Notes under the pieces: generated by a model
Databases searched by the model: none
Told to the model about the DNA's origin: nothing
Seen by the model: only the letters and a program-made list of their open reading frames with translations
Virus genome (UHGV): UHGV-0246164
Direction: 5' to 3' (one strand)
Length of the DNA: 35,288 nucleotides
Source: a virus
Part shown: positions 23,659 through 35,288 of the stretch, in pieces
Position numbering within the stretch: position 1 is the stretch's first letter
Layout: each line of letters opens with the position of its first letter
Made by a program: the position numbers and the translations under genes

Positions 23659-23945
23659 GGCTTAATCTTCCCCTCCTTCAGCAGGATCGCCTGCGTCCTG
23701 ATCACGCCTTCGAGGTGATAAAGTCTGGCGTCTTTGTTGTCGAGGTTATGGGTGCGTCGGTCGATCTCCGCGTGGCAGTCACTACAAGCCCATGCGCCGA
23801 TCAGGTCGTCAGGCTTCATTCCCGTTCCGCAAATTCCAGCCATCCGGTAATGTGCCAGAACTGTAGTTTCAGGATTGCCATTGCATACGCCGTAAATACG
23901 TACCTGGCATTCTCTGCCACGTGCTTCTTTGCGTAGATTAGCCAT
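23655..23945 (-). CDS. DUF1364-like protein (YbcO-like, Cys/His-rich)
   Basis: 96 aa, MANLRKEARGRECQVRIYGVCNGNPETTVLAHYR... with conserved Cys/His. Position upstream of rusA is as in DLP12-type nin regions. Confidence 0.55.
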   Translation of the reverse strand: MANLRKEARGRECQVRIYGVCNGNPETTVLAHYRMAGICGTGMKPDDLIGAWACSDCHAEIDRRTHNLDNKDARLYHLEGVIRTQAILLKEGKIKP

Positions 23946-24150
23946 TTACCTTCCCTCGCAATTGAAGAATTGACTGAAGGTCTTTTTTAATAAATATGCG
24001 AGTGCGAATTGAGCAGTAGTTTTCCTTCATTCTGGCGTAGTAATAGTCCTTTCTTTGCTTAAGTTTGTTGGCATCCGCTGTCATCCAGTCTTTTACAGCA
24101 AACTTAATTAACCAGCGGTAACAGAGATACCATTTCAGGTAATCACTCAT
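23938..24150 (-). CDS. Hypothetical small basic protein (weak call)
   Basis: 70 aa AT-rich ORF next to the HNH insertion. No recognisable motif. Confidence 0.3.
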   Translation of the reverse strand: MSDYLKWYLCYRWLIKFAVKDWMTADANKLKQRKDYYYARMKENYCSIRTRIFIKKDLQSILQLRGKVNG

Positions 24151-24203
24151 CGTCTTCTTCCTCGTACATTGAGCTATTCGGATCGCTCATCAGTTCTGCA
24201 CAG

Positions 24204-24710
24204 TTATGGTCTGCCATGGTTTTCATGAAAACCCAGTTCTTTTTCTGCCCTCTTCCTTTCTGCAATAGCGTCAATGATGCTAGCAAATATTCCAAGATAT
24301 TTGGTGCGCCCATCTACGCATATATTCGCAATCCACTTGCATCTCTCTTTATTGAAATATACTCCAGTCACTCCTGACGAATTGGTTATTTTTCTCTTTT
24401 GGTTCTGTGCATTCTGTTGGTGTGTAACCAATCGAAGATTAGATAGCCTATTATCTGACCTTACTCCATTTATATGATCAATTTTATACCCTAATGGAAT
24501 CTCACCATTATTTATCATCCATATAACGTGGTGAGCATAAGTAATTACACCATCGATAGTTAACATCCTATAACCATCACTCCTAATGTAACCAGCAACA
24601 CTGCCAACCTTAACATTATTAGAAGGAGACACTTTCCATCTAAGCACACCTAAAACATCATCATATGATAATTTATTTCTTAATTCGTCTATGTTGCTTA
24701 TATTTCTCAT
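24204..24710 (-). CDS. HNH homing-type endonuclease with C-terminal AP2 domain
   Basis: 168 aa with an HNH motif (IDHINGVRSDNRLSNLRLVTHQQNAQN) and AP2-like segment (VTGVYFNKERCKWIANICVDGRTKYLGIF). Strongly AT-rich. Confidence 0.75.
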   Translation of the reverse strand: MRNISNIDELRNKLSYDDVLGVLRWKVSPSNNVKVGSVAGYIRSDGYRMLTIDGVITYAHHVIWMINNGEIPLGYKIDHINGVRSDNRLSNLRLVTHQQNAQNQKRKITNSSGVTGVYFNKERCKWIANICVDGRTKYLGIFASIIDAIAERKRAEKELGFHENHGRP

Positions 24711-24848
24711 TATGTTCCACCATATTTAAGCATTCATATATACAACGCTCACACACGTGAACTTCCAGCACATGCAGCTTCTGACCGCAGTTAGCGCACG
24801 TTAAAGCTCGCTCGACACTTCCTTGTTCGTAACTTCGATTTTGGTCAA

Positions 24849-25031
24849 TCACCTTGTTTTCCTCGCACGTTCTCTAAGCCACCGGATATCCCACAGGTGA
24901 GCCGTGTAGTTGAAGGTTTTTACGTCAGATTCTTTTGGGATTGGCTTGCATTTATTCCTGGAGCGCTTCGTTGGAAGGTATTTGCAGTTTTCGCAGATGA
25001 TGTCGGTGATACTTCGTCGCTGTCGTCTCAT
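24849..25031 (-). CDS. NinE-like small protein
   Basis: Preferred start [18 protein letters not shown]... at 25031, forming an ATGA overlap with the ninB stop (the track ORF begins at 25076). Resembles NinE as I recall it. Confidence 0.45.
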
Positions 25032-25450
25032 TCGTACCTCCTGTCGGTAAATCTGACACCCTGACCAATAGCCCATGCTGTCGTGTACTCAATCAGGCTT
25101 GCCATGCGCTTCACGCTCATCTGCGCGCTACTTTCGCGAATGTTGACGTATTCGCCTTCAAGCCCGGGCAAAACATCAGCTTCCTGCTTTGTTGCCACTG
25201 CATGACCGCTTATCAACAAAACCTTCCATTGTTCTGGTTTTAACCATTTGCCGCACCATTGAACCTGACTTGCGATATCCGCCAGCATCGCGTGAAATTT
25301 TGCGTTCTGGTCAAGGTTGCGCTTGTAGTCAGTAATGCGGATGGTAACTGGCTTGTCTTTATCGAGTGGTGTTGCGAGGATGGCGGTGATTGCGGCTTGC
25401 TGTTGTTGCTTACTCCTGAGGAAAATTGTCTGTTTCATGGAATTCCTCAA
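25028..25450 (-). CDS. ninB: NinB (Orf-family recombination mediator)
   Basis: 140 aa with [27 protein letters not shown], similar to lambda NinB (RSLDQNRKLWACLGDVSRQVEWHGRWL, from memory). Confidence 0.7.
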
Positions 25451-27148: not shown

Positions 27149-27994
27149 TCACTCCTGCGCCCATGAAGGCATTTCAGTTTGCCCGTAATCTTTGGCGGCA
27201 AAGTTTTCCTGCATAGCTCGCTGCTGCGGCCTCGGTTGAGATTTCCCCTTTGGAGTCTTGGGTTCAAAAATCCCCTGCCAACCACTGGCGATGCTCTGGT
27301 TTATAATTTCTTCAGGTGTATATCCCTTCTCCAGACTTCTGCTTAGAACGTTGATAGCCTGAGTGACGCTTTGCTTAGACTTGATCGACTTACCTATCTC
27401 CTTGCGATAGGTAACCCACGACAACCATGTTTCTGCCGATAACCAATCAGGCAACTCTGTTTCTAGCGGGTCGAACTTCTGAGAAATTTTTTTGGGGGAT
27501 ATAGGGGGTTTATTAATATTTTCTTTTGTCTTTAAAGAATGTCTTTTGTGTGTCTCTAACTTCGAGACATTGAGTGTCTCTAATTTGGAGACATTTTTTG
27601 TCTCTAACTTCGAGACAAAGTTGCTAACTTGGAGACACTTGCTGAATTGCCACGCAGATACCTCCCTGTTTACACCGATTTGATTTCCATCCATAAACAG
27701 GCAATTCATTGAAATCAGTTCTTTTTTAGCCTTGTTAACATTCTGCCTTGATAGTCCTGTTAACTGAGCAATTTGCTCATCGGCTATTCGATCTGTTTTC
27801 TTATTGAATCCATATGTTTTCCGGACGTAGGCCAGCATAACTTTCAACTGGCGAGCGGTTAAATCGGCACTTGCGATAGCTTCCAGCAGCTCGTTAGCGA
27901 ATCTGGTGTAACCATCATCGATATCAGCCACTCTTAGCTCCTGTTCGGCAAAGTTACCTCTGCCGAAGTTGAGTATTTTTGCTGTATTTGTCAT
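27149..27994 (-). CDS. O: Replication initiator O-like protein (lambda O-type N-terminal domain)
   Basis: MTNTAKILNFGRGNFAEQELRVADIDDGY... resembles the lambda O N-terminus. The gene contains four iterons translated as VSKLET repeats. The C-terminal part differs from lambda O. Confidence 0.75.
   Translation of the reverse strand: MTNTAKILNFGRGNFAEQELRVADIDDGYTRFANELLEAIASADLTARQLKVMLAYVRKTYGFNKKTDRIADEQIAQLTGLSRQNVNKAKKELISMNCLFMDGNQIGVNREVSAWQFSKCLQVSNFVSKLETKNVSKLETLNVSKLETHKRHSLKTKENINKPPISPKKISQKFDPLETELPDWLSAETWLSWVTYRKEIGKSIKSKQSVTQAINVLSRSLEKGYTPEEIINQSIASGWQGIFEPKTPKGKSQPRPQQRAMQENFAAKDYGQTEMPSWAQE
27551..27636. repeat. Origin of replication iterons (4 x 18 bp) inside the O gene
   Basis: GTCTCTAACTTCGAGACA at 27551 and 27599, GTCTCTAATTTGGAGACA at 27575, GTTGCTAACTTGGAGACA at 27619. 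Each has internal dyad symmetry. An AT-rich tract lies at 27480-27550. Confidence 0.7.
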
Positions 27995-31704: not shown

Positions 31705-32016
31705 ATGATGATTCTGACTCTGAATGATAAGCGTGAAATATCGCAAATAATCGCAAGTTTTACTGATGAAGATTACGAACGAATCAACAGTGAAGTTGAT
31801 CGCCTCTGCAAACGTTGCGACCCAATAAGCGAAATGCTTCGCTCATATAAACCAGATGAACACACTAAGGACGCTATCGACTGGCTGGAAGATGATGACT
31901 GTAACTATCAGGAAAAAGCCGCTGAATGGTTCTGGGATGCAATAACCGAAAGAGTTAAGGCTGAATATGCTTTCGCAATATTCAAACGCAGACACATTTA
32001 TGGAGAAGCAGCATGA
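31705..32016 (+). CDS. Hypothetical acidic protein upstream of recT
   Basis: 103 aa, AGGAG 5 nt upstream. 4-nt overlap with the recT start. Confidence 0.5.
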   Translation: MMILTLNDKREISQIIASFTDEDYERINSEVDRLCKRCDPISEMLRSYKPDEHTKDAIDWLEDDDCNYQEKAAEWFWDAITERVKAEYAFAIFKRRHIYGEAA

Positions 32017-32924
32017 GCAATATCGTTGAATTCGTTAAACAGCAAGAGCAGTTATTCTGCGGAGCATTGACTGAACAGACGGTGACATGGGCTAAGGAAA
32101 GCCAGTTTGCAATTCAGTATTTCCAGAAAAACGATTACCTGGCTAAAACAGCACTGGCAAATCCAACAAGCGCACAGAACGCCATCATCAATGTTGCGGC
32201 GATCGGCATCACCTTAAACCCGGCTAGCAAACTGGCTTATCTGGTTCCGCGCGACGGCATGGTATGCCTTGATATCAGTTACATGGGATTGCTCCATATT
32301 GCAATGGAGTCTGGTGTTATCTCATGGGGTCAGGCAAAACTTGTTCATGCTAACGATACCTATGAGTCAAACGGGCTTGATAAAGCACCAACCCATAAAT
32401 ACAAAGCCTTCGGTGACCGTGGTGATATCGTTGGCGTTTACTGCACAGTTAAGACGCCAGCAGGTGATTATCTAACGGAAGAGATGAGTCTGGCTGAAAT
32501 TGAGGCTGTAAGGAAAACAAGCAAGGCAGCATTCAGCGATAAAGGACCATGGGTAAATCACTGGAATGAGATGGCGCGAAAGACGGTCGTAAAGCGTGCA
32601 AGCAAGTATTGGCCTAAGGCATCACGTCTTGATAGTGCTATTCACGTACTAAACGAAGAAGAAGGTGTATGGACTGAACCAGTTATGCCGCACAAATCAG
32701 AGGAAGATATCCGCGAAGATGAACGGAAACGCCAGCAGGAAATAACGGATAAAGCACAACTTCTTTGTGATGAAATGGCTCAGGCTGAAAACATGGATGA
32801 TTTGAAGAGATATTTTGCAGAAGCATATCGCCTGACATCTGGAATGAAATTGCAGCAGAACGTACAAGCCATTTACATAGAATGCAAAGCGAAACTGGAG
32901 GTTGCCAGTGAGCAAACTGTATGA
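32013..32924 (+). CDS. recT: RecT-family single-strand annealing recombinase
   Basis: 303 aa. GPWVNHWNEMARKTVVKRASKYWP matches the RecT motif (Rac RecT GPWVTHWEEMAKKTAIRRLFKYLP, from memory). Confidence 0.8.
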   Translation: MSNIVEFVKQQEQLFCGALTEQTVTWAKESQFAIQYFQKNDYLAKTALANPTSAQNAIINVAAIGITLNPASKLAYLVPRDGMVCLDISYMGLLHIAMESGVISWGQAKLVHANDTYESNGLDKAPTHKYKAFGDRGDIVGVYCTVKTPAGDYLTEEMSLAEIEAVRKTSKAAFSDKGPWVNHWNEMARKTVVKRASKYWPKASRLDSAIHVLNEEEGVWTEPVMPHKSEEDIREDERKRQQEITDKAQLLCDEMAQAENMDDLKRYFAEAYRLTSGMKLQQNVQAIYIECKAKLEVASEQTV

Positions 32925-33390
32925 AATTGCCAATGAATATGCAAAATTGATGGATTCAGATTTAGAACCAGAGATGATTGCTGACACAATAGAAGGAATG
33001 GAAGGAGAATTTACCGATAAAATAGAGCAACTTCTCGCCATTATTAAAAATGAATCTGGTTATGCTGAACGCCTCAAGGACGAGGCAAAGTCACTGAATG
33101 AACGAGCCGCAGTAATTCAAAATAAGATTGACAGCATTATGGCGTATATAGCGTCATCGCTTGAAATGGTTGGCAAGAAAAAGATTCGAGCAGGTATTCA
33201 CCAGGTAACAATCCGCAAACCGTCAGAAACTGTAGAAATCATCGACTCAAGCGCCCTTCCTCCTGAATACGTTGAGTTTGAAACGACAATTAAAGCCGAC
33301 AAACTGGCAATCAAACACCAACTAAAAGCAGGAATAAATATCCCCGGCGCTCAACTCAAAGTTGGGAAACCTTCACTTCTTATCAAATAA
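32908..33390 (+). CDS. Recombination-module protein (possibly Gp157-like)
   Basis: Preferred start GTG 32908 with GGAGG upstream (the track ORF begins at TTG 32902). 160 aa, coiled-coil-rich, overlapping the recT 3' end. Confidence 0.45.
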   Translation: MSKLYEIANEYAKLMDSDLEPEMIADTIEGMEGEFTDKIEQLLAIIKNESGYAERLKDEAKSLNERAAVIQNKIDSIMAYIASSLEMVGKKKIRAGIHQVTIRKPSETVEIIDSSALPPEYVEFETTIKADKLAIKHQLKAGINIPGAQLKVGKPSLLIK

Positions 33391-33716
33391 TGGTATCGCC
33401 TATGAAAAAGACTCCATGGGAGAAATGGGAAGTCGATTTCTTGCGCGAAGTAGCGGCGACAATGCCAGTTGAAGTTATCGCTGAAAAACTGGAAAGGACT
33501 GAAAAAGCAGTAATGGCGAAAGCAACAAGGATTGGCGCTGACATTGTTAGCCGACTTCGTGGAAGACGCTGGACAAGAGCCGAAGTATCACTTTTCGGTA
33601 AGTTCTCCGCAGAAGAAATAGCAATTGCAACCTGCCGCTCAATTTATTCAGTAAGAGCTATGCGATACAAGCTAAAAAAACTCGATGAAGAAAGAGCAGG
33701 CATACGAATAAATTAA
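33390..33716 (+). CDS. Hypothetical protein with two Trp-containing helix repeats
   Basis: 108 aa with internal repeat [14 protein letters not shown] / [14 protein letters not shown]. Overlaps the upstream stop. Confidence 0.45.
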
Positions 33717-33732
33717 CAAAGAGGAATTTACC

Positions 33733-33897
33733 ATGAGAGGACTTGCATACAATCCCGGCATTCTTCCGGCAGAAATGATTATTCGCCAACGCGTAAAGCC
33801 AATGCCATCGAGAGAGGAATTGCTTAAGAGAAAGAGTTTCGGTTCTGTTAATGACAACAAATATCTGAATGCGATGTGGCGGAGTGGGAAGAAATGA
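33733..33897 (+). CDS. Small ORF (54 aa) translationally coupled to the HNH gene
   Basis: ATG 33733 with GAGGA 8 nt upstream. Stop TGA 33895-33897 overlaps ATG 33894 of the HNH gene (ATGA). Below the ORF-track size cutoff. Confidence 0.35.
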
Positions 33898-34853
33898 AAC
33901 AAATGTCACTAATTGAGATGGATGGTTTTCTGAAAGGTAAATGCATCCCATGTGATTTAAAGGTTAACGAAACAAACGCTGAATATCTGGTGCGTAAATT
34001 TGCTGAAGCGGAGGCCAAGTGCGCGGCGCTGGCTGCGGAGAATGCGGGGCTGAAAGACACTCTATCAGCAGTGATTGACCGCAGTAACGAGCCTGATTAT
34101 CAAAGCATCGGAATGGGCTGTGGTGTTGAGGATAACGGTCTTCAGACTGACGGTTATAACGCCTGTGAATATGGATGGCGCGAAGCAATGGATCGCATTT
34201 ACTCAGAAGTTATTCCAGACACTATTCCTGAAACCCCGGCGACAGACGCCTTCCTGGCTGAAGTTAGGCGTGAGGCATCTGAACCACTCCAGAAGGAAAT
34301 TGAAATCCTTAATAAGAATCTGCTCATGTCTGTTGGCGATATCAGAGACCTTATTGACTACAACCCTGAAACTGGAGTTCTTACCGCGAAAGTCAACTTT
34401 GCAGGTCGTCAGGAAGGAGCAATTATTGGCTCTCAAACTTGGCAGGGCTATTACGCCTTTTCGCTGTTTGGCAAGAAGTGCTTTGCTCACCGTCTAGCAT
34501 GGCTTCTACATTACGGAGAATGGCCTTCCCAGCCTATCGACCATATCAATGGCATCAAGAAAGACAACAGCATAAGAAACCTGCGCCTTTGCTCTCTATC
34601 GCAGAATCAATTCAACAAACCAACCCAGAAAAATAACACCACTGGTGTCAAGGGGGTCTATTGGAATAAGCGCGATAAGCGATATGTAGCAAGCGTTCAA
34701 TTTAACGGGAAGAAGTACAGCGCAGGGCACCATAAGGATATCGAAAGCGCAAAGGAAGCCGTTATGAAGCTAAGAGAAAAACTTGCAGGCGAATTTACTA
34801 ACCATGGTGAATTCGAACTCGCCGACCAGTTACGACAGGGAGCAGCGCTATGA
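33894..34853 (+). CDS. HNH endonuclease with AP2 domain and an N-terminal domain of unknown function
   Basis: C-terminal HNH ([28 protein letters not shown]) and AP2 ([28 protein letters not shown]) parallel the HNH gene at 24204-24710. N-terminal 180 aa unassigned. Start ATG 33894 (track GTG 33876). Confidence 0.7.
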
Positions 34854-35122
34854 GAAAATCATACATCGTTATTCAGCAGTACTGGTGGTGCAACGAGAAA
34901 GGCCATGGAGTTGAATACACGACAGACGGCGTTGACTTCGATAAGCGCGATAAGGCAATCAAGCATGGTCTGAAAACACAAGGTAGTGATGATTTCAACA
35001 TCGGCGTTATCGAAGGCGGTAAGCTTGTTTCCTTCGACTGGATGAATGAGCCAGTGGGTGAAAGTGCAGAGACACTTGCTGAAATTGCAGAAGCCATCGG
35101 TTACGAAGGAACCGCCCAATGA
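34850..35122 (+). CDS. Hypothetical protein
   Basis: 90 aa ORF with ATGA overlaps at both ends. Confidence 0.45.
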   Translation: MRKSYIVIQQYWWCNEKGHGVEYTTDGVDFDKRDKAIKHGLKTQGSDDFNIGVIEGGKLVSFDWMNEPVGESAETLAEIAEAIGYEGTAQ

Positions 35123-35288
35123 GCAACATAGACAAACAGGCCATACAAGCAGTTGCTGATTTAAAGGCGGGCTACACCCTTGGTAGAACTGACGTTGCGA
35201 TTCTGAATGAGCTGGTGCGTATCGCGCTGGGGCTGCTGGATGAGCTGGAAGCCGCAGAGAAGCGTATTGCTGAACTGGAAGCGCGTGC
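35119..35288 (+). CDS. Hypothetical protein, N-terminal part (runs off the window end)
   Basis: ATG 35119 (MSNIDKQAIQAVADLKAGYTLGRTDV...), open to the end of the window. Confidence 0.4.
   Translation, partial: MSNIDKQAIQAVADLKAGYTLGRTDVAILNELVRIALGLLDELEAAEKRIAELEAR

What the first reader, a model, noticed from the sequence alone, without database searches (positions are those of the whole stretch)
33733..34853. Second HNH-AP2 endonuclease, fused to a 180 aa N-terminal domain and coupled to a small upstream ORF
Seen in sequence: the C-terminal 140 aa parallel the nin-region HNH-AP2 protein motif for motif (IDHING...NLRL...QNQ, then V.GVY.NK...G.KY). The N-terminal 180 aa have no counterpart there. 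The gene is coupled by ATGA overlaps to a 54 aa ORF upstream and a 90 aa ORF downstream. Inference: either a homing endonuclease with an extra targeting domain or a domesticated nuclease working with its small neighbours. Two related endonucleases in one prophage is notable.
Basis: partly seen in the sequence, partly recalled or inferred. Interest (0 to 1): 0.5.

Follow-up and report, generated by a model that had tools for sequence, protein, structure and literature searches.

The report
EaE gene fused to HNH-AP2 endonuclease
An accessory gene of a lambda/P22-like E. coli prophage has had its tail end replaced, in frame, by a complete homing-type DNA-cutting enzyme; the fusion is real and well conserved, but the same kind of fusion was described in Salmonella phage epsilon34 in 2008, so it is a fairly ordinary example of phage gene shuffling.

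Summary
Window 33894-34853 (+) is one uninterrupted 319-aa ORF. It overlaps a DUF2737 ORF upstream and a 90-aa ORF downstream by ATGA. Its C-terminal part is an HNH_3 + AP2 endonuclease, 33% identical (E 4e-25) to the nin-region copy at 24204-24710 (-).

Corrections: the unmatched N-terminus is about 143 aa, not 180. That N-terminus does have relatives: it is the front of a P22 EaE-type early-left gene (phrog_614).

The gene is a four-part mosaic. Its joints are two short conserved motifs ([13 protein letters not shown] and [12 protein letters not shown]) and the Shine-Dalgarno/ATGA tail. A complete HEG-sized core (M145 to NHGE306) sits in frame between EaE sequence on both sides.

Relatives in Salmonella, Enterobacter, Citrobacter and E. 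coli are always fused, to at least eight different heads, with variable neighbours. The core is under very strong purifying selection (pN/pS about 0.03).

HNH-less alleles occupy the same slot with 96-99% identical flanks. The neighbours are therefore not partners.

Most likely this is a homing-type nuclease embedded in, and expressed through, an EaE gene. Homing itself is inferred, not shown. Phage epsilon34 gene 31 is a published precedent with a different HNH lineage. Two HNH-AP2 genes in one phage is common.

The parts
33733..33897 (+). DUF2737 ORF (54 aa). It is the upstream neighbour, overlapping the target gene by ATGA. It is not specific to the nuclease.
   Evidence: Pfam DUF2737 E 5e-29. 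The same gene precedes HNH-less alleles in Dewey, WEM25 and CEA601S.
33894..34853 (+). The fusion gene, 319 aa: EaE-type front, then a complete HNH-AP2 endonuclease core, then an EaE-type tail.
   Evidence: Continuous ORF. phrog_614 matches residues 1-133 and phrog_99 (HNH) matches 133-315. A 100% identical protein, P0001, is annotated 'HNH endonuclease [E. coli]'.
33894..34054 (+). Module 1: EaE-type head (residues 1-54) ending in the coiled-coil motif [13 protein letters not shown].
   Evidence: 94-98% nt identity to Dewey, Louie, WEM25, mEpX1, HK140 and Stx phages. 45% aa identity over 146 aa to phage Gally 'EaE, similar to P22 EaE', E 6e-29.
34014..34054 (+). Crossover motif 1 (codes for [14 protein letters not shown]). 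This is the overlap between the module 1 and module 2 homologies.
   Evidence: Dewey/Louie homology ends at 34048-34054. MB06022 homology starts at 34014. The motif is present at DNA level (83-95% identity) in all other contexts.
34055..34230 (+). Module 2: variable middle segment (about residues 55-112).
   Evidence: 99.2% nt identity over 34014-34264 to an HNH-less gene of E. coli MB06022, which carries a different head.
34231..34264 (+). Crossover motif 2 (codes for [13 protein letters not shown]). It is shared by HNH-less and HNH-bearing alleles and marks the left edge of the nuclease module.
   Evidence: MB06022 homology ends at 34264. L006/L007 homology (99%) starts at 34231. Salmonella and Enterobacter module homology starts at 34228-34230.
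34265..34325 (+). Linker helix (residues R125-L144, '[20 protein letters not shown]'). It is found only with the nuclease module.
   Evidence: Predicted helix 115-146. It is absent from free-standing relatives. pN/pS is 0.21 for the 32 codons T114-M145 (motif 2, linker and M145), so this stretch is translated in this frame.
34326..34811 (+). HEG-sized core, M145 to E306. It is co-linear from start to end with free-standing HNH-AP2 endonucleases.
   Evidence: Alignment with FelixO1 (174 aa), Klebsiella phage SCNJ1-C (188 aa) and the nin paralogue (168 aa). pN/pS is 0.027 with synonymous sites near saturation.
34482..34610 (+). HNH_3 catalytic motif (residues 197-239; D216 H217 N229 N238).
   Evidence: Pfam E 1.2e-15. 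D216, H217, N219, N225, N229, R231, N238 and N241 are invariant in 58 sequences. The model matches I-HmuI 1u3e, prob 0.97.
34641..34790 (+). AP2-type DNA-binding domain (residues 250-299).
   Evidence: Pfam AP2 at 25 bits, below the gathering score. 52 of 74 family members match AP2. The model matches AtERF1 1gcc, prob 0.99, rmsd 1.7 A.
34812..34853 (+). EaE-type C-terminal tail ([13 protein letters not shown]). It carries the Shine-Dalgarno GGGAG and the ATGA overlap for the next gene.
   Evidence: It aligns with the C-termini of HNH-less alleles (...FREQIRKGAAL / ...AAQIRKGVQS). DNA identity with Louie and WEM25 resumes at 34839. Tail pN/pS is 0.46.
34850..35122 (+). 90-aa ORF (phrog_26897). 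It is the downstream neighbour and not specific to the nuclease.
   Evidence: It follows HNH-less alleles in Dewey, Louie, WEM25 and MB06022. It is replaced by unrelated ORFs after other fusion genes.
24204..24710 (-). The nin-region HNH-AP2 paralogue (168 aa). It is a free-standing gene lying inside a 543-nt insertion (24204-24746) that splits ninF.
   Evidence: BLASTP 33% identity, E 4e-25 to the target. Insertion junctions were mapped against an intact ninF. Present in 5 of 5,426 complete E. coli genomes, against 2,228 that match part of the 23900-25100 query.

Best explanation
The gene is an EaE-family accessory gene of the early-left (pL) operon of a lambdoid/P22-like prophage. Its C-terminal domain has been replaced by a complete HNH-AP2 homing-type endonuclease, read in frame on both sides.

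Shown:
- One ORF encodes, in order: an EaE head, a coiled-coil motif, a variable middle, the [12 protein letters not shown] motif, a 20-residue linker helix, an HEG-sized core (M145-E306, with HNH_3 catalytic residues and an AP2 DNA-binding domain), and an EaE tail that carries the ribosome-binding site and ATGA overlap of the next gene.
- The gene was assembled by recombination at two short conserved motifs of 34-41 nt and at the gene-boundary sequence.
- The nuclease core is intact and under very strong purifying selection.
- This nuclease lineage was fused in all 17 loci whose DNA was checked.
- HNH-less alleles sit at the same slot with 96-99% identical flanks.

Inferred:
- It is made as the full-length fusion from the pL transcript by translational coupling. 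No promoter-like site, terminator-like site or good SD lies inside the gene.
- It nicks or cuts a specific DNA site, probably in HNH-less EaE-type alleles near the [12 protein letters not shown]-coding joint.
- Repair by the phage recombination functions encoded just upstream (RecT/Erf, Gam-like, anti-RecBCD) then copies the cassette and short flanks into the cut genome. This would be intron-less homing.
- The coiled-coil front is a passenger, or at most an oligomerisation device, rather than a targeting domain.
For: - ORF continuity and overlaps.
- Domains: Pfam HNH_3 E 1e-15 and AP2 25 bits. PHROG phrog_614 covers residues 1-133 and phrog_99 covers 133-315. The model matches I-HmuI and AtERF1.
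- Paralogue similarity: E 4e-25.
- Mosaic breakpoints: Dewey/Louie/WEM25 homology runs to 34054; MB06022 covers 34014-34264; L006/L007 cover 34231-35141; Louie/WEM25 resume at 34839.
- HNH-less alleles at the same slot.
- Free-standing relatives are co-linear with M145-E306 only.
- The lineage is always fused: 18 full sequences and 8 IMG/VR loci with at least six head types. The one apparent free-standing 175-aa form is a start-codon miscall.
- Catalytic residues are invariant in 58 sequences.
- Selection: dN/dS 0.02-0.05 for the module; core 0.027, linker 0.21, tail 0.46.
- Occasional decayed copies, as expected for HEGs: a frameshift at the joint in L010 and frameshifts in the AP2 region of P0077.
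- The cassette is absent from 5,426 complete E. coli genomes and 50,697 phage records, while the flanks occur in 1,400 genomes.
- In the same phage, the paralogue is a clean insertion that splits ninF.
- HNH-AP2 is recognised as a HEG family (PMC10448857).
- No intron, RNA family, promoter-like or terminator-like site lies inside the gene on the + strand.
Against: - No cleavage or homing has been measured, and the target site is unknown.
- The difference between alleles is a replacement (about 585 nt for 162 nt), not a pure insertion.
- The joints coincide with generic lambdoid boundary and linker sequences. Ordinary homologous recombination explains the mosaic without any nuclease activity.
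- Very low dN/dS with saturated synonymous sites, and the lack of any free-standing form, fit a nuclease kept for a phage function at least as well as a selfish element.
- The linker helix, absent from free-standing relatives, is itself conserved. This suggests the fusion context matters to function.
Confidence: 0.6

Rival explanations
1. It is a domesticated nuclease. The EaE::HNH-AP2 protein is kept because it does something useful for the phage, with the coiled-coil front needed for dimerisation or localisation, and it no longer homes. Possible uses include cutting competitor phage or host DNA, processing recombination or replication intermediates, or acting as a sequence-specific DNA binder.
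For: - Core pN/pS is 0.027 with synonymous sites near saturation. The window versus L006 differ by 6 nt, all synonymous.
- This lineage was fused in all 17 loci whose DNA was checked.
- The linker helix, absent from free-standing relatives, is under purifying selection.
- The family is common in Salmonella: single protein sequences are seen on 561 and 405 contigs.
- It sits next to the phage recombination module.
Against: - It is an optional gene. It is absent from all 5,426 complete E. coli genomes and all 50,697 phage records at DNA level, and it is replaced by a 55-aa domain in near-isogenic prophages.
- Frameshifted copies exist.
- Heads are freely interchangeable, which argues against a specific head-nuclease partnership.
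- No match to defence-system models other than 'homing endonuclease'.
Confidence: 0.22
2. The N-terminal region is an added targeting domain that gives the endonuclease a new DNA or protein specificity.
For: Many homing endonucleases are modular, with separate DNA-binding modules. The N-terminus is translated and fused in all relatives.
Against: - The N-terminus has no DNA-binding domain hit in Pfam, NCBIfam or PHROGs.
- It is predicted to be long helices with low-confidence loops.
- It belongs to a family that exists without a nuclease.
- At least eight unrelated heads precede a 91-100% identical nuclease module. A targeting domain would be expected to co-vary with the enzyme.
- The AP2 domain already supplies DNA binding.
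Confidence: 0.1
3. The nuclease works as a unit with its small, translationally coupled neighbours, for example as a toxin-immunity pair or a multi-subunit enzyme.
For: There are ATGA overlaps on both sides. A C-terminal nuclease behind variable N-termini, followed by a small ORF, superficially resembles polymorphic toxin loci.
Against: - The same DUF2737 and 90-aa genes flank HNH-less alleles.
- Downstream of the fusion, at least seven unrelated ORFs occur, with no BLASTP similarity among those tested.
- Upstream, the neighbour can be DUF2737, an EaE gene or replication-region genes.
- ATGA coupling is universal in this operon.
Confidence: 0.03
4. The fusion is an artefact or pseudogene: two adjacent genes joined by loss of a stop codon or by a sequencing error, with the N-terminal part irrelevant or untranslated.
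For: Some annotations start the protein at the internal Met: P0073 at 175 aa, and epsilon34 gene 31A. The free-standing relatives begin at the position of M145.
Against: - The same in-frame arrangement occurs in independent assemblies from four genera.
- The 32 codons T114-M145 leading into the core have pN/pS 0.21 in this frame.
- There is no good Shine-Dalgarno sequence before ATG 34326 in any of seven loci, unlike the nin paralogue, which has GGTGGA.
- No promoter-like site lies inside the gene.
Confidence: 0.05

Closest known systems
Salmonella phage epsilon34 gene 31 (Villafane et al. 2008, PMC2629481)
   Same: It occupies the same slot, directly after the DUF2737 gene in the early-left operon of a P22-like phage. 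[quoted passage not shown] Its joint lies at the EaE coiled-coil motif (...EEKCAALA|).
   Different: It belongs to a different nuclease lineage: NUMOD4 + HNH_3 without AP2, only 33% identical over 58 aa. It is shorter (230 aa). Its joint is at motif 1 rather than at [12 protein letters not shown], and no EaE tail is retained. It is therefore an independent fusion event.
Free-standing HNH-AP2 homing endonucleases of phages (phrog_99; FelixO1 ORF106; the nin-region copy of this window; family defined by Magnani et al. 2004, as cited in PMC10448857)
   Same: HNH_3 catalytic motif followed by an AP2 DNA-binding domain. They are co-linear with residues 145-306 at 33-41% identity. They show presence/absence polymorphism.
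   Different: Those are separate genes of 168-188 aa with their own start, stop and ribosome-binding site. The target has lost both ends as gene boundaries and is embedded in another ORF, with an extra conserved linker helix.
P22 EaE and the Ead/Ea22-like proteins of lambdoid phages (function unknown)
   Same: Same operon position. The head is 45% identical to a P22-type EaE over 146 aa. It shares the [13 protein letters not shown] and (T)[10 protein letters not shown] motifs and the ...QLRKG tail. An HNH-less homologue matches Pfam Ead_Ea22.
   Different: The C-terminal domain of about 45-55 aa in EaE-type proteins is replaced by a nuclease core of about 160 aa plus a linker. The target protein itself does not reach any Ead_Ea22 Pfam hit.
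ShiLan-type in-ORF HNH insertion elements in phage methylase genes (Arsenault et al. 2025, PMC11855218)
   Same: An HNH endonuclease nested within a host ORF, with no intein or intron, and with no stop codons in the host frame.
   Different: In ShiLan the HNH is read in a different frame from the host gene, and the insertion is thought to be a tolerated loop. Here the HNH is in the host frame and replaces the C-terminal domain.

Membership tests
HNH-AP2 homing endonucleases | HNH_3-type catalytic motif (DH...N...N) intact | tested here: met
   Pfam HNH_3 E 1.2e-15. D216, H217, N229 and N238 are invariant in 58 sequences. The model matches I-HmuI 1u3e, prob 0.97.
HNH-AP2 homing endonucleases | C-terminal AP2 DNA-binding domain | tested here: met
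   Pfam AP2 at 25 bits, below the 33.3-bit gathering score. 52 of 74 family members match. The model matches AtERF1 1gcc (prob 0.99, rmsd 1.7 A) and TEM1 AP2.
HNH-AP2 homing endonucleases | Free-standing gene with its own start, stop and ribosome-binding site | tested here: not met
   It is embedded in frame in an EaE-type ORF in all 17 loci whose DNA was checked (window, L006-L012, L014-L021, epsilon34 excluded). There is no good SD before M145.
HNH-AP2 homing endonucleases | Presence/absence polymorphism at a fixed site with conserved flanks | tested here: met
   HNH-less alleles in WEM25, Louie, Dewey and MB06022 have 96-99% identical flanks. The cassette is in 0 of 5,426 complete E. coli genomes, while the flanks are in 1,400. 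It is a replacement, not a pure insertion.
HNH-AP2 homing endonucleases | Site-specific cleavage of the HEG-less allele and super-Mendelian inheritance | not testable with these tools
   Needs biochemistry and phage crosses.
EaE / Ead-Ea22-like lambdoid accessory proteins | Sequence similarity of the N-terminal part to P22-type EaE | tested here: met
   45% identity over 146 aa, E 6e-29, to phage Gally 'EaE, similar to P22 EaE'. phrog_614 E 2e-41.
EaE / Ead-Ea22-like lambdoid accessory proteins | Position in the early-left operon between the recombination genes and xis/int | tested here: met
   The order is N-like, RecT, Gp157, a D5-like 108-aa ORF, DUF2737, the target, the 90-aa ORF, then an Ead/Ea22-like ORF at the window end. 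Relatives have the same order.
EaE / Ead-Ea22-like lambdoid accessory proteins | Match to Pfam Ead_Ea22 (PF13935) | tested here: not met
   No hit for the target. The Louie HNH-less homologue hits at E 1e-6 and one fusion relative, P0010, hits.
Intein or group I intron carrying a HEG | Hint/splicing domain or intron RNA structure around the HEG | tested here: not met
   No Hint or intein Pfam hit. No Rfam family in the window at gathering threshold.
Polymorphic toxin with cognate immunity gene | A conserved small immunity gene immediately downstream that co-varies with the C-terminal nuclease | tested here: not met
   At least seven unrelated downstream ORFs follow the same nuclease module. 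The 90-aa ORF also follows HNH-less alleles.

The most novel reading that the evidence does not exclude
The EaE/Ead-Ea22 family may be a cassette system whose two conserved coding motifs act as docking sites, and this HNH-AP2 lineage may have become an obligate in-frame 'gene drive' of lambdoid prophages. In this reading it cuts the conserved motif DNA in any paralogous Ea-type gene of a co-resident or superinfecting phage. With the adjacent RecT/Erf functions, it then converts that gene to the nuclease-bearing form. This would explain the many heads, the sharp module edges and the unusually strong conservation. Alternatively, the fusion protein could be a selected weapon in phage-phage competition.
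Probability: 0.15. Interest if true: 0.55.

Novelty: new member of a known kind. Interest (0 to 1): 0.25.

Why it matters
It matters modestly, in four ways.

1. It gives a clean, base-resolved example of how lambdoid accessory genes are rebuilt. The crossovers occur at 34-41-nt conserved coding motifs and at the SD/ATGA boundary.

2. It shows that a whole homing-type endonuclease can persist as an in-frame domain of a host ORF under strong purifying selection, rather than decaying.

3. It exposes an annotation error. HNH-less EaE-type proteins are widely named 'hNH endonuclease', probably because of fusions like this one.

4. If the nuclease really targets Ea-family motifs, it would be a simple experimental system for intron-less homing and recombination hotspots in temperate phages.

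Tried and rejected
- Free-standing form of this lineage. P0073 (175 aa) looked free-standing. In L008 and L009 the ORF runs upstream in frame to a full head, and in L010 there is a frameshift at the joint. It is a start-codon miscall.
- Neighbour partnership or immunity gene. Rejected by variable neighbours.
- Intron or intein. No Rfam hit and no Hint domain.
- Internal promoter, terminator or SD for separate expression of the core. None convincing.
- Defence-system membership. PADLOC gives only a weak 'homing endonuclease' hit.
- NCBIfam gave nothing.
- A sequence search of the PDB gave nothing meaningful.
- Special DNA-level conservation of the [12 protein letters not shown]-coding segment, as a possible target site. 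Third-position identity there (0.65-0.70) is not above the module average.
- GTDB species-representative genomes hold no close relative of the module, only a 48% partial match in a Companilactobacillus. No taxonomic survey was possible from that scan.
- The AlphaFold model is only moderate (mean pLDDT 66, pTM 0.36). Nothing is claimed from the N-terminal fold beyond long helices.
- Literature searches for Ea22+HNH and eaE found no functional study of these fusions beyond the epsilon34 genome paper.
Full report
**1. What is in the sequence**

Window 33894-34853 (+) is a single open reading frame of 319 codons. The mechanical ORF list starts it at GTG 33876. Homologues start at ATG 33894.

The ATG lies in an ATGA overlap with the stop of the 54-aa ORF 33733-33897. 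That ORF is a DUF2737 protein (Pfam E 5e-29). The stop lies in an ATGA overlap with the start of a 90-aa ORF, 34850-35122, which belongs to phrog_26897.

Pfam places HNH_3 at residues 197-239 (E 1.2e-15). It places AP2 at residues 250-299 with 25 bits, below the gathering score.

An AlphaFold model built on 74 sequences is only moderate (mean pLDDT 66). Its C-terminal half matches I-HmuI (1u3e, prob 0.97) and plant AP2 domains (1gcc, prob 0.99, rmsd 1.7 A).

BLASTP gives 33% identity over 165 aa, E 4e-25, aligned to residues 144-306 of the target.

- The parallel is about 165 aa, not 140.
- The unmatched N-terminus is about 143 aa, not 180.

**2. The surroundings**

The window is a lambdoid/P22-like prophage. 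The pR operon runs on the minus strand: cro, cII, an O-like gene, a DnaC-like gene, the nin region, Q, lysis genes and the structural genes.

The pL operon runs on the plus strand, in this order: N-like, RecT (32013-32924), Gp157/Gam-like (32902-33390), a D5-like 108-aa ORF, DUF2737, the target, the 90-aa ORF, and an Ead/Ea22-like ORF that runs off the window end.

No promoter-like or terminator-like site lies inside the gene on the plus strand. No Rfam family or tRNA is present.

**3. The N-terminus is the front of an EaE-type gene**

PHROGs assigns residues 1-133 to phrog_614, a family of unknown function (E 2e-41).

In phages Dewey and Louie, and in E. coli WEM25 and CEA601S, the gene in exactly this slot is a 153-193-aa protein with no nuclease. 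In Dewey, Louie and WEM25 it lies between DUF2737 and the same 90-aa ORF.

In phage Gally the gene in this slot is annotated 'EaE, similar to P22 EaE'. It is 45% identical to the target over 146 aa (E 6e-29).

These HNH-less proteins share three features with the target:
- the head [19 protein letters not shown]...
- the motifs [13 protein letters not shown] and (E)[11 protein letters not shown]
- a C-terminal tail ...Q(I/L)RKG(AAL/VQS)

**4. The gene is a four-piece mosaic**

DNA comparisons give sharp breakpoints:
- 33392-34054 is 94-98% identical to Dewey, Louie and WEM25.
- 34014-34264 is 99.2% identical to an HNH-less gene of E. coli MB06022 that carries a different head.
- 34231-35141 is 99.1% identical to gut-metagenome P22-like contigs L006 and L007, where the same nuclease module is joined to an Ead/Ea22 head.
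- 34839-35141 is again 99% identical to Louie and WEM25.

The overlaps between successive homologies are 34014-34054 (coding [14 protein letters not shown]) and 34231-34264 (coding [13 protein letters not shown]). The third joint is the tail, which contains GGGAG and ATGA for the next gene.

All ea-region ORFs examined end in such a tail. This explains why ATGA coupling is generic here.

**5. A complete homing-endonuclease-sized unit is embedded in frame**

Free-standing relatives are the FelixO1 HNH (174 aa), a Klebsiella phage protein (188 aa) and the nin paralogue (168 aa). They align from their own start to their own end with residues ~145-306 only. M145 sits where their starts are, and ...NHGE306 sits where they stop.

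Upstream of M145 there is a 20-residue linker helix found only with this module. Downstream there are 13 residues of EaE-type tail.

**6. The fusion is the rule for this lineage**

The protein search returned 3,177 relatives. The best 83 carry HNH_3. They are 175-383 aa long and come from Salmonella, Enterobacter, Citrobacter and E. coli. Single Salmonella sequences are seen on 561 and 405 contigs.

Eighteen sequences read in full, and eight IMG/VR loci, show a 91-100% identical module ([12 protein letters not shown]...RKGxxx). It sits behind at least eight unrelated heads.

The one apparent free-standing form, P0073 (175 aa), is a start miscall. The ORF continues upstream in L008 and L009, and L010 has a frameshift at the joint.

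Upstream and downstream neighbours vary. At least seven unrelated downstream ORFs occur, with no BLASTP similarity among those tested.

**7. Selection**

Between the window and the Salmonella (L011) or Enterobacter (L008) modules, nucleotide identity is about 80% but amino-acid identity is 91%. The values are pS 0.70-0.72, pN 0.05-0.06 and dN/dS 0.02-0.03.

The window and L006 differ at 6 nt, all synonymous.

Split by segment and summed over 21 pairs, pN/pS is as follows:

| Segment | pN/pS |
|---|---|
| Core (S146-E307 as computed) | 0.027 |
| Motif 2 plus linker helix (T114-M145) | 0.21 |
| Tail | 0.46 |

The linker is therefore translated in this frame and the enzyme is strongly constrained. 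D216, H217, N229 and N238 are invariant in 58 sequences. Decayed copies do occur: L010 and P0077.

**8. Presence and absence**

The cassette 34265-34849 has no blastn match in 5,426 complete E. coli genomes or in 50,697 phage records. The flanks occur in 1,400 genomes. WEM25 is near-isogenic across RecT to Ead/Ea22, apart from 34008-34838.

The nin-region copy is in 5 of 5,426 genomes, against 2,228 that match part of the 23900-25100 query. Its gene lies in a clean 543-nt insertion (24204-24746) that replaces 4 nt inside ninF and splits that gene. This is a textbook free-standing HEG.

HNH-AP2 relatives are found in 3,477 phage records, with up to five places per record. Two copies in one phage is therefore ordinary.

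**9. Mechanism**

Shown: an intact, constrained HNH-AP2 enzyme is made as part of an EaE-type polypeptide within the pL operon, at a site where alleles with and without it alternate between near-identical flanks.

Inferred: it is a homing-type endonuclease that relies on the host ORF for translation. It would spread, with short flanks, by break-induced gene conversion, helped by the RecT/Erf and anti-RecBCD functions encoded just upstream.

Ordinary recombination at the conserved motifs explains the mosaic equally well. The very low dN/dS and the obligate fusion leave room for a domesticated function. I put homing at about 0.6, a domesticated function at about 0.2, and a head-as-targeting-domain role at about 0.1. 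Neighbour partnership and artefact are close to excluded.

**10. Comparison with the known**

I checked epsilon34 gp31. It is in the same slot after DUF2737. Its nuclease is NUMOD4 + HNH_3 without AP2, only 33% identical over 58 aa to the target, and it is joined at the first motif (...EEKCAALA|). This is an independent fusion of the same kind.

HNH-AP2 is a recognised HEG family (PMC10448857). ShiLan-type elements are HNH genes nested in a host ORF but read out of frame (PMC11855218).

The target's exact protein is already in NCBI as 'HNH endonuclease' (P0001).

**11. Verdict**

It is a new member of a known kind.

Points worth keeping:
- the base-level mosaic map
- the strong constraint on an embedded HEG
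- the recurrent, independent capture of HNH genes by EaE-type genes
- the misnaming of HNH-less EaE proteins as 'hNH endonuclease'

Interest is 0.25.

Noticed in passing
window 24143-24852 (- strand); insertion 24204-24746: The nin-region HNH-AP2 gene lies in a clean 543-nt insertion inside ninF. An intact ninF (E. coli Z1322HEC0006) aligns to 23902-24203 and 24747-24824, with only 4 nt replaced. This leaves a NinF N-part ORF with an altered end (24673-24852) and the NinF C-part inside ORF 24143-24313. PGAP annotates NinF twice in strain E200086. Only 5 of 5,426 complete E. coli genomes carry the insertion.
   Followed up: yes
L003:2342-2911, L004:2662-3180, L005:2662-3123; proteins P0086, P0092, P0102-P0120: RefSeq/PGAP names HNH-less EaE-type proteins 'hNH endonuclease', although they have no HNH or AP2 domain (Pfam '-') and align only to the non-nuclease front of the fusion. 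This is probably a name propagated from fusion proteins such as this one.
   Followed up: partly
window 34812-34853 and 35100-35122; L006-L021 gene ends: Every ea-region ORF examined ends with a similar short tail (...RKGAAL...RKGVQS...GTAQ...EAAQ). The tail encodes AAGGAG/GGGAG followed by an ATGA stop-start overlap. This conserved boundary sequence doubles as the recombination joint between modules.
   Followed up: partly
L026:10664-11356 (- strand; Salmonella phage epsilon34 gene 31): A different HNH lineage (NUMOD4 + HNH_3, no AP2) is fused in frame to an EaE head in the same slot, joined at the KCAALA motif. EaE-type genes have therefore captured HNH endonucleases at least twice, independently.
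   Followed up: partly
window 27546-27617 (inside the O-like replication gene 27149-27994, - strand): Three tandem 24-nt repeats, seen in the protein as VSKLET x3. They look like origin iterons inside the initiator gene, as in lambda O.
   Followed up: no
window 33390-33716 (+): The 108-aa ORF between Gp157 and DUF2737 is annotated in relatives in three ways: 'transcriptional regulator, D5-like', 'Anti-RecBCD protein 1 (Abc1-like)' and 'hypothetical'. Only weak HTH-like Pfam evidence was found.
   Followed up: no
window 35119-35288 (+): An Ead/Ea22-like ORF (MSNIDKQAIQAVADLKAG...) starts in an ATGA overlap with the 90-aa ORF and runs off the end of the window. It is another member of the same mosaic coiled-coil family.
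   Followed up: no
L010:3560-4060 and protein P0077: These are decayed copies of the fusion gene. L010 has a frameshift exactly in the TDAF motif at the head-module joint. P0077 has frameshifts within the AP2 region.
   Followed up: partly
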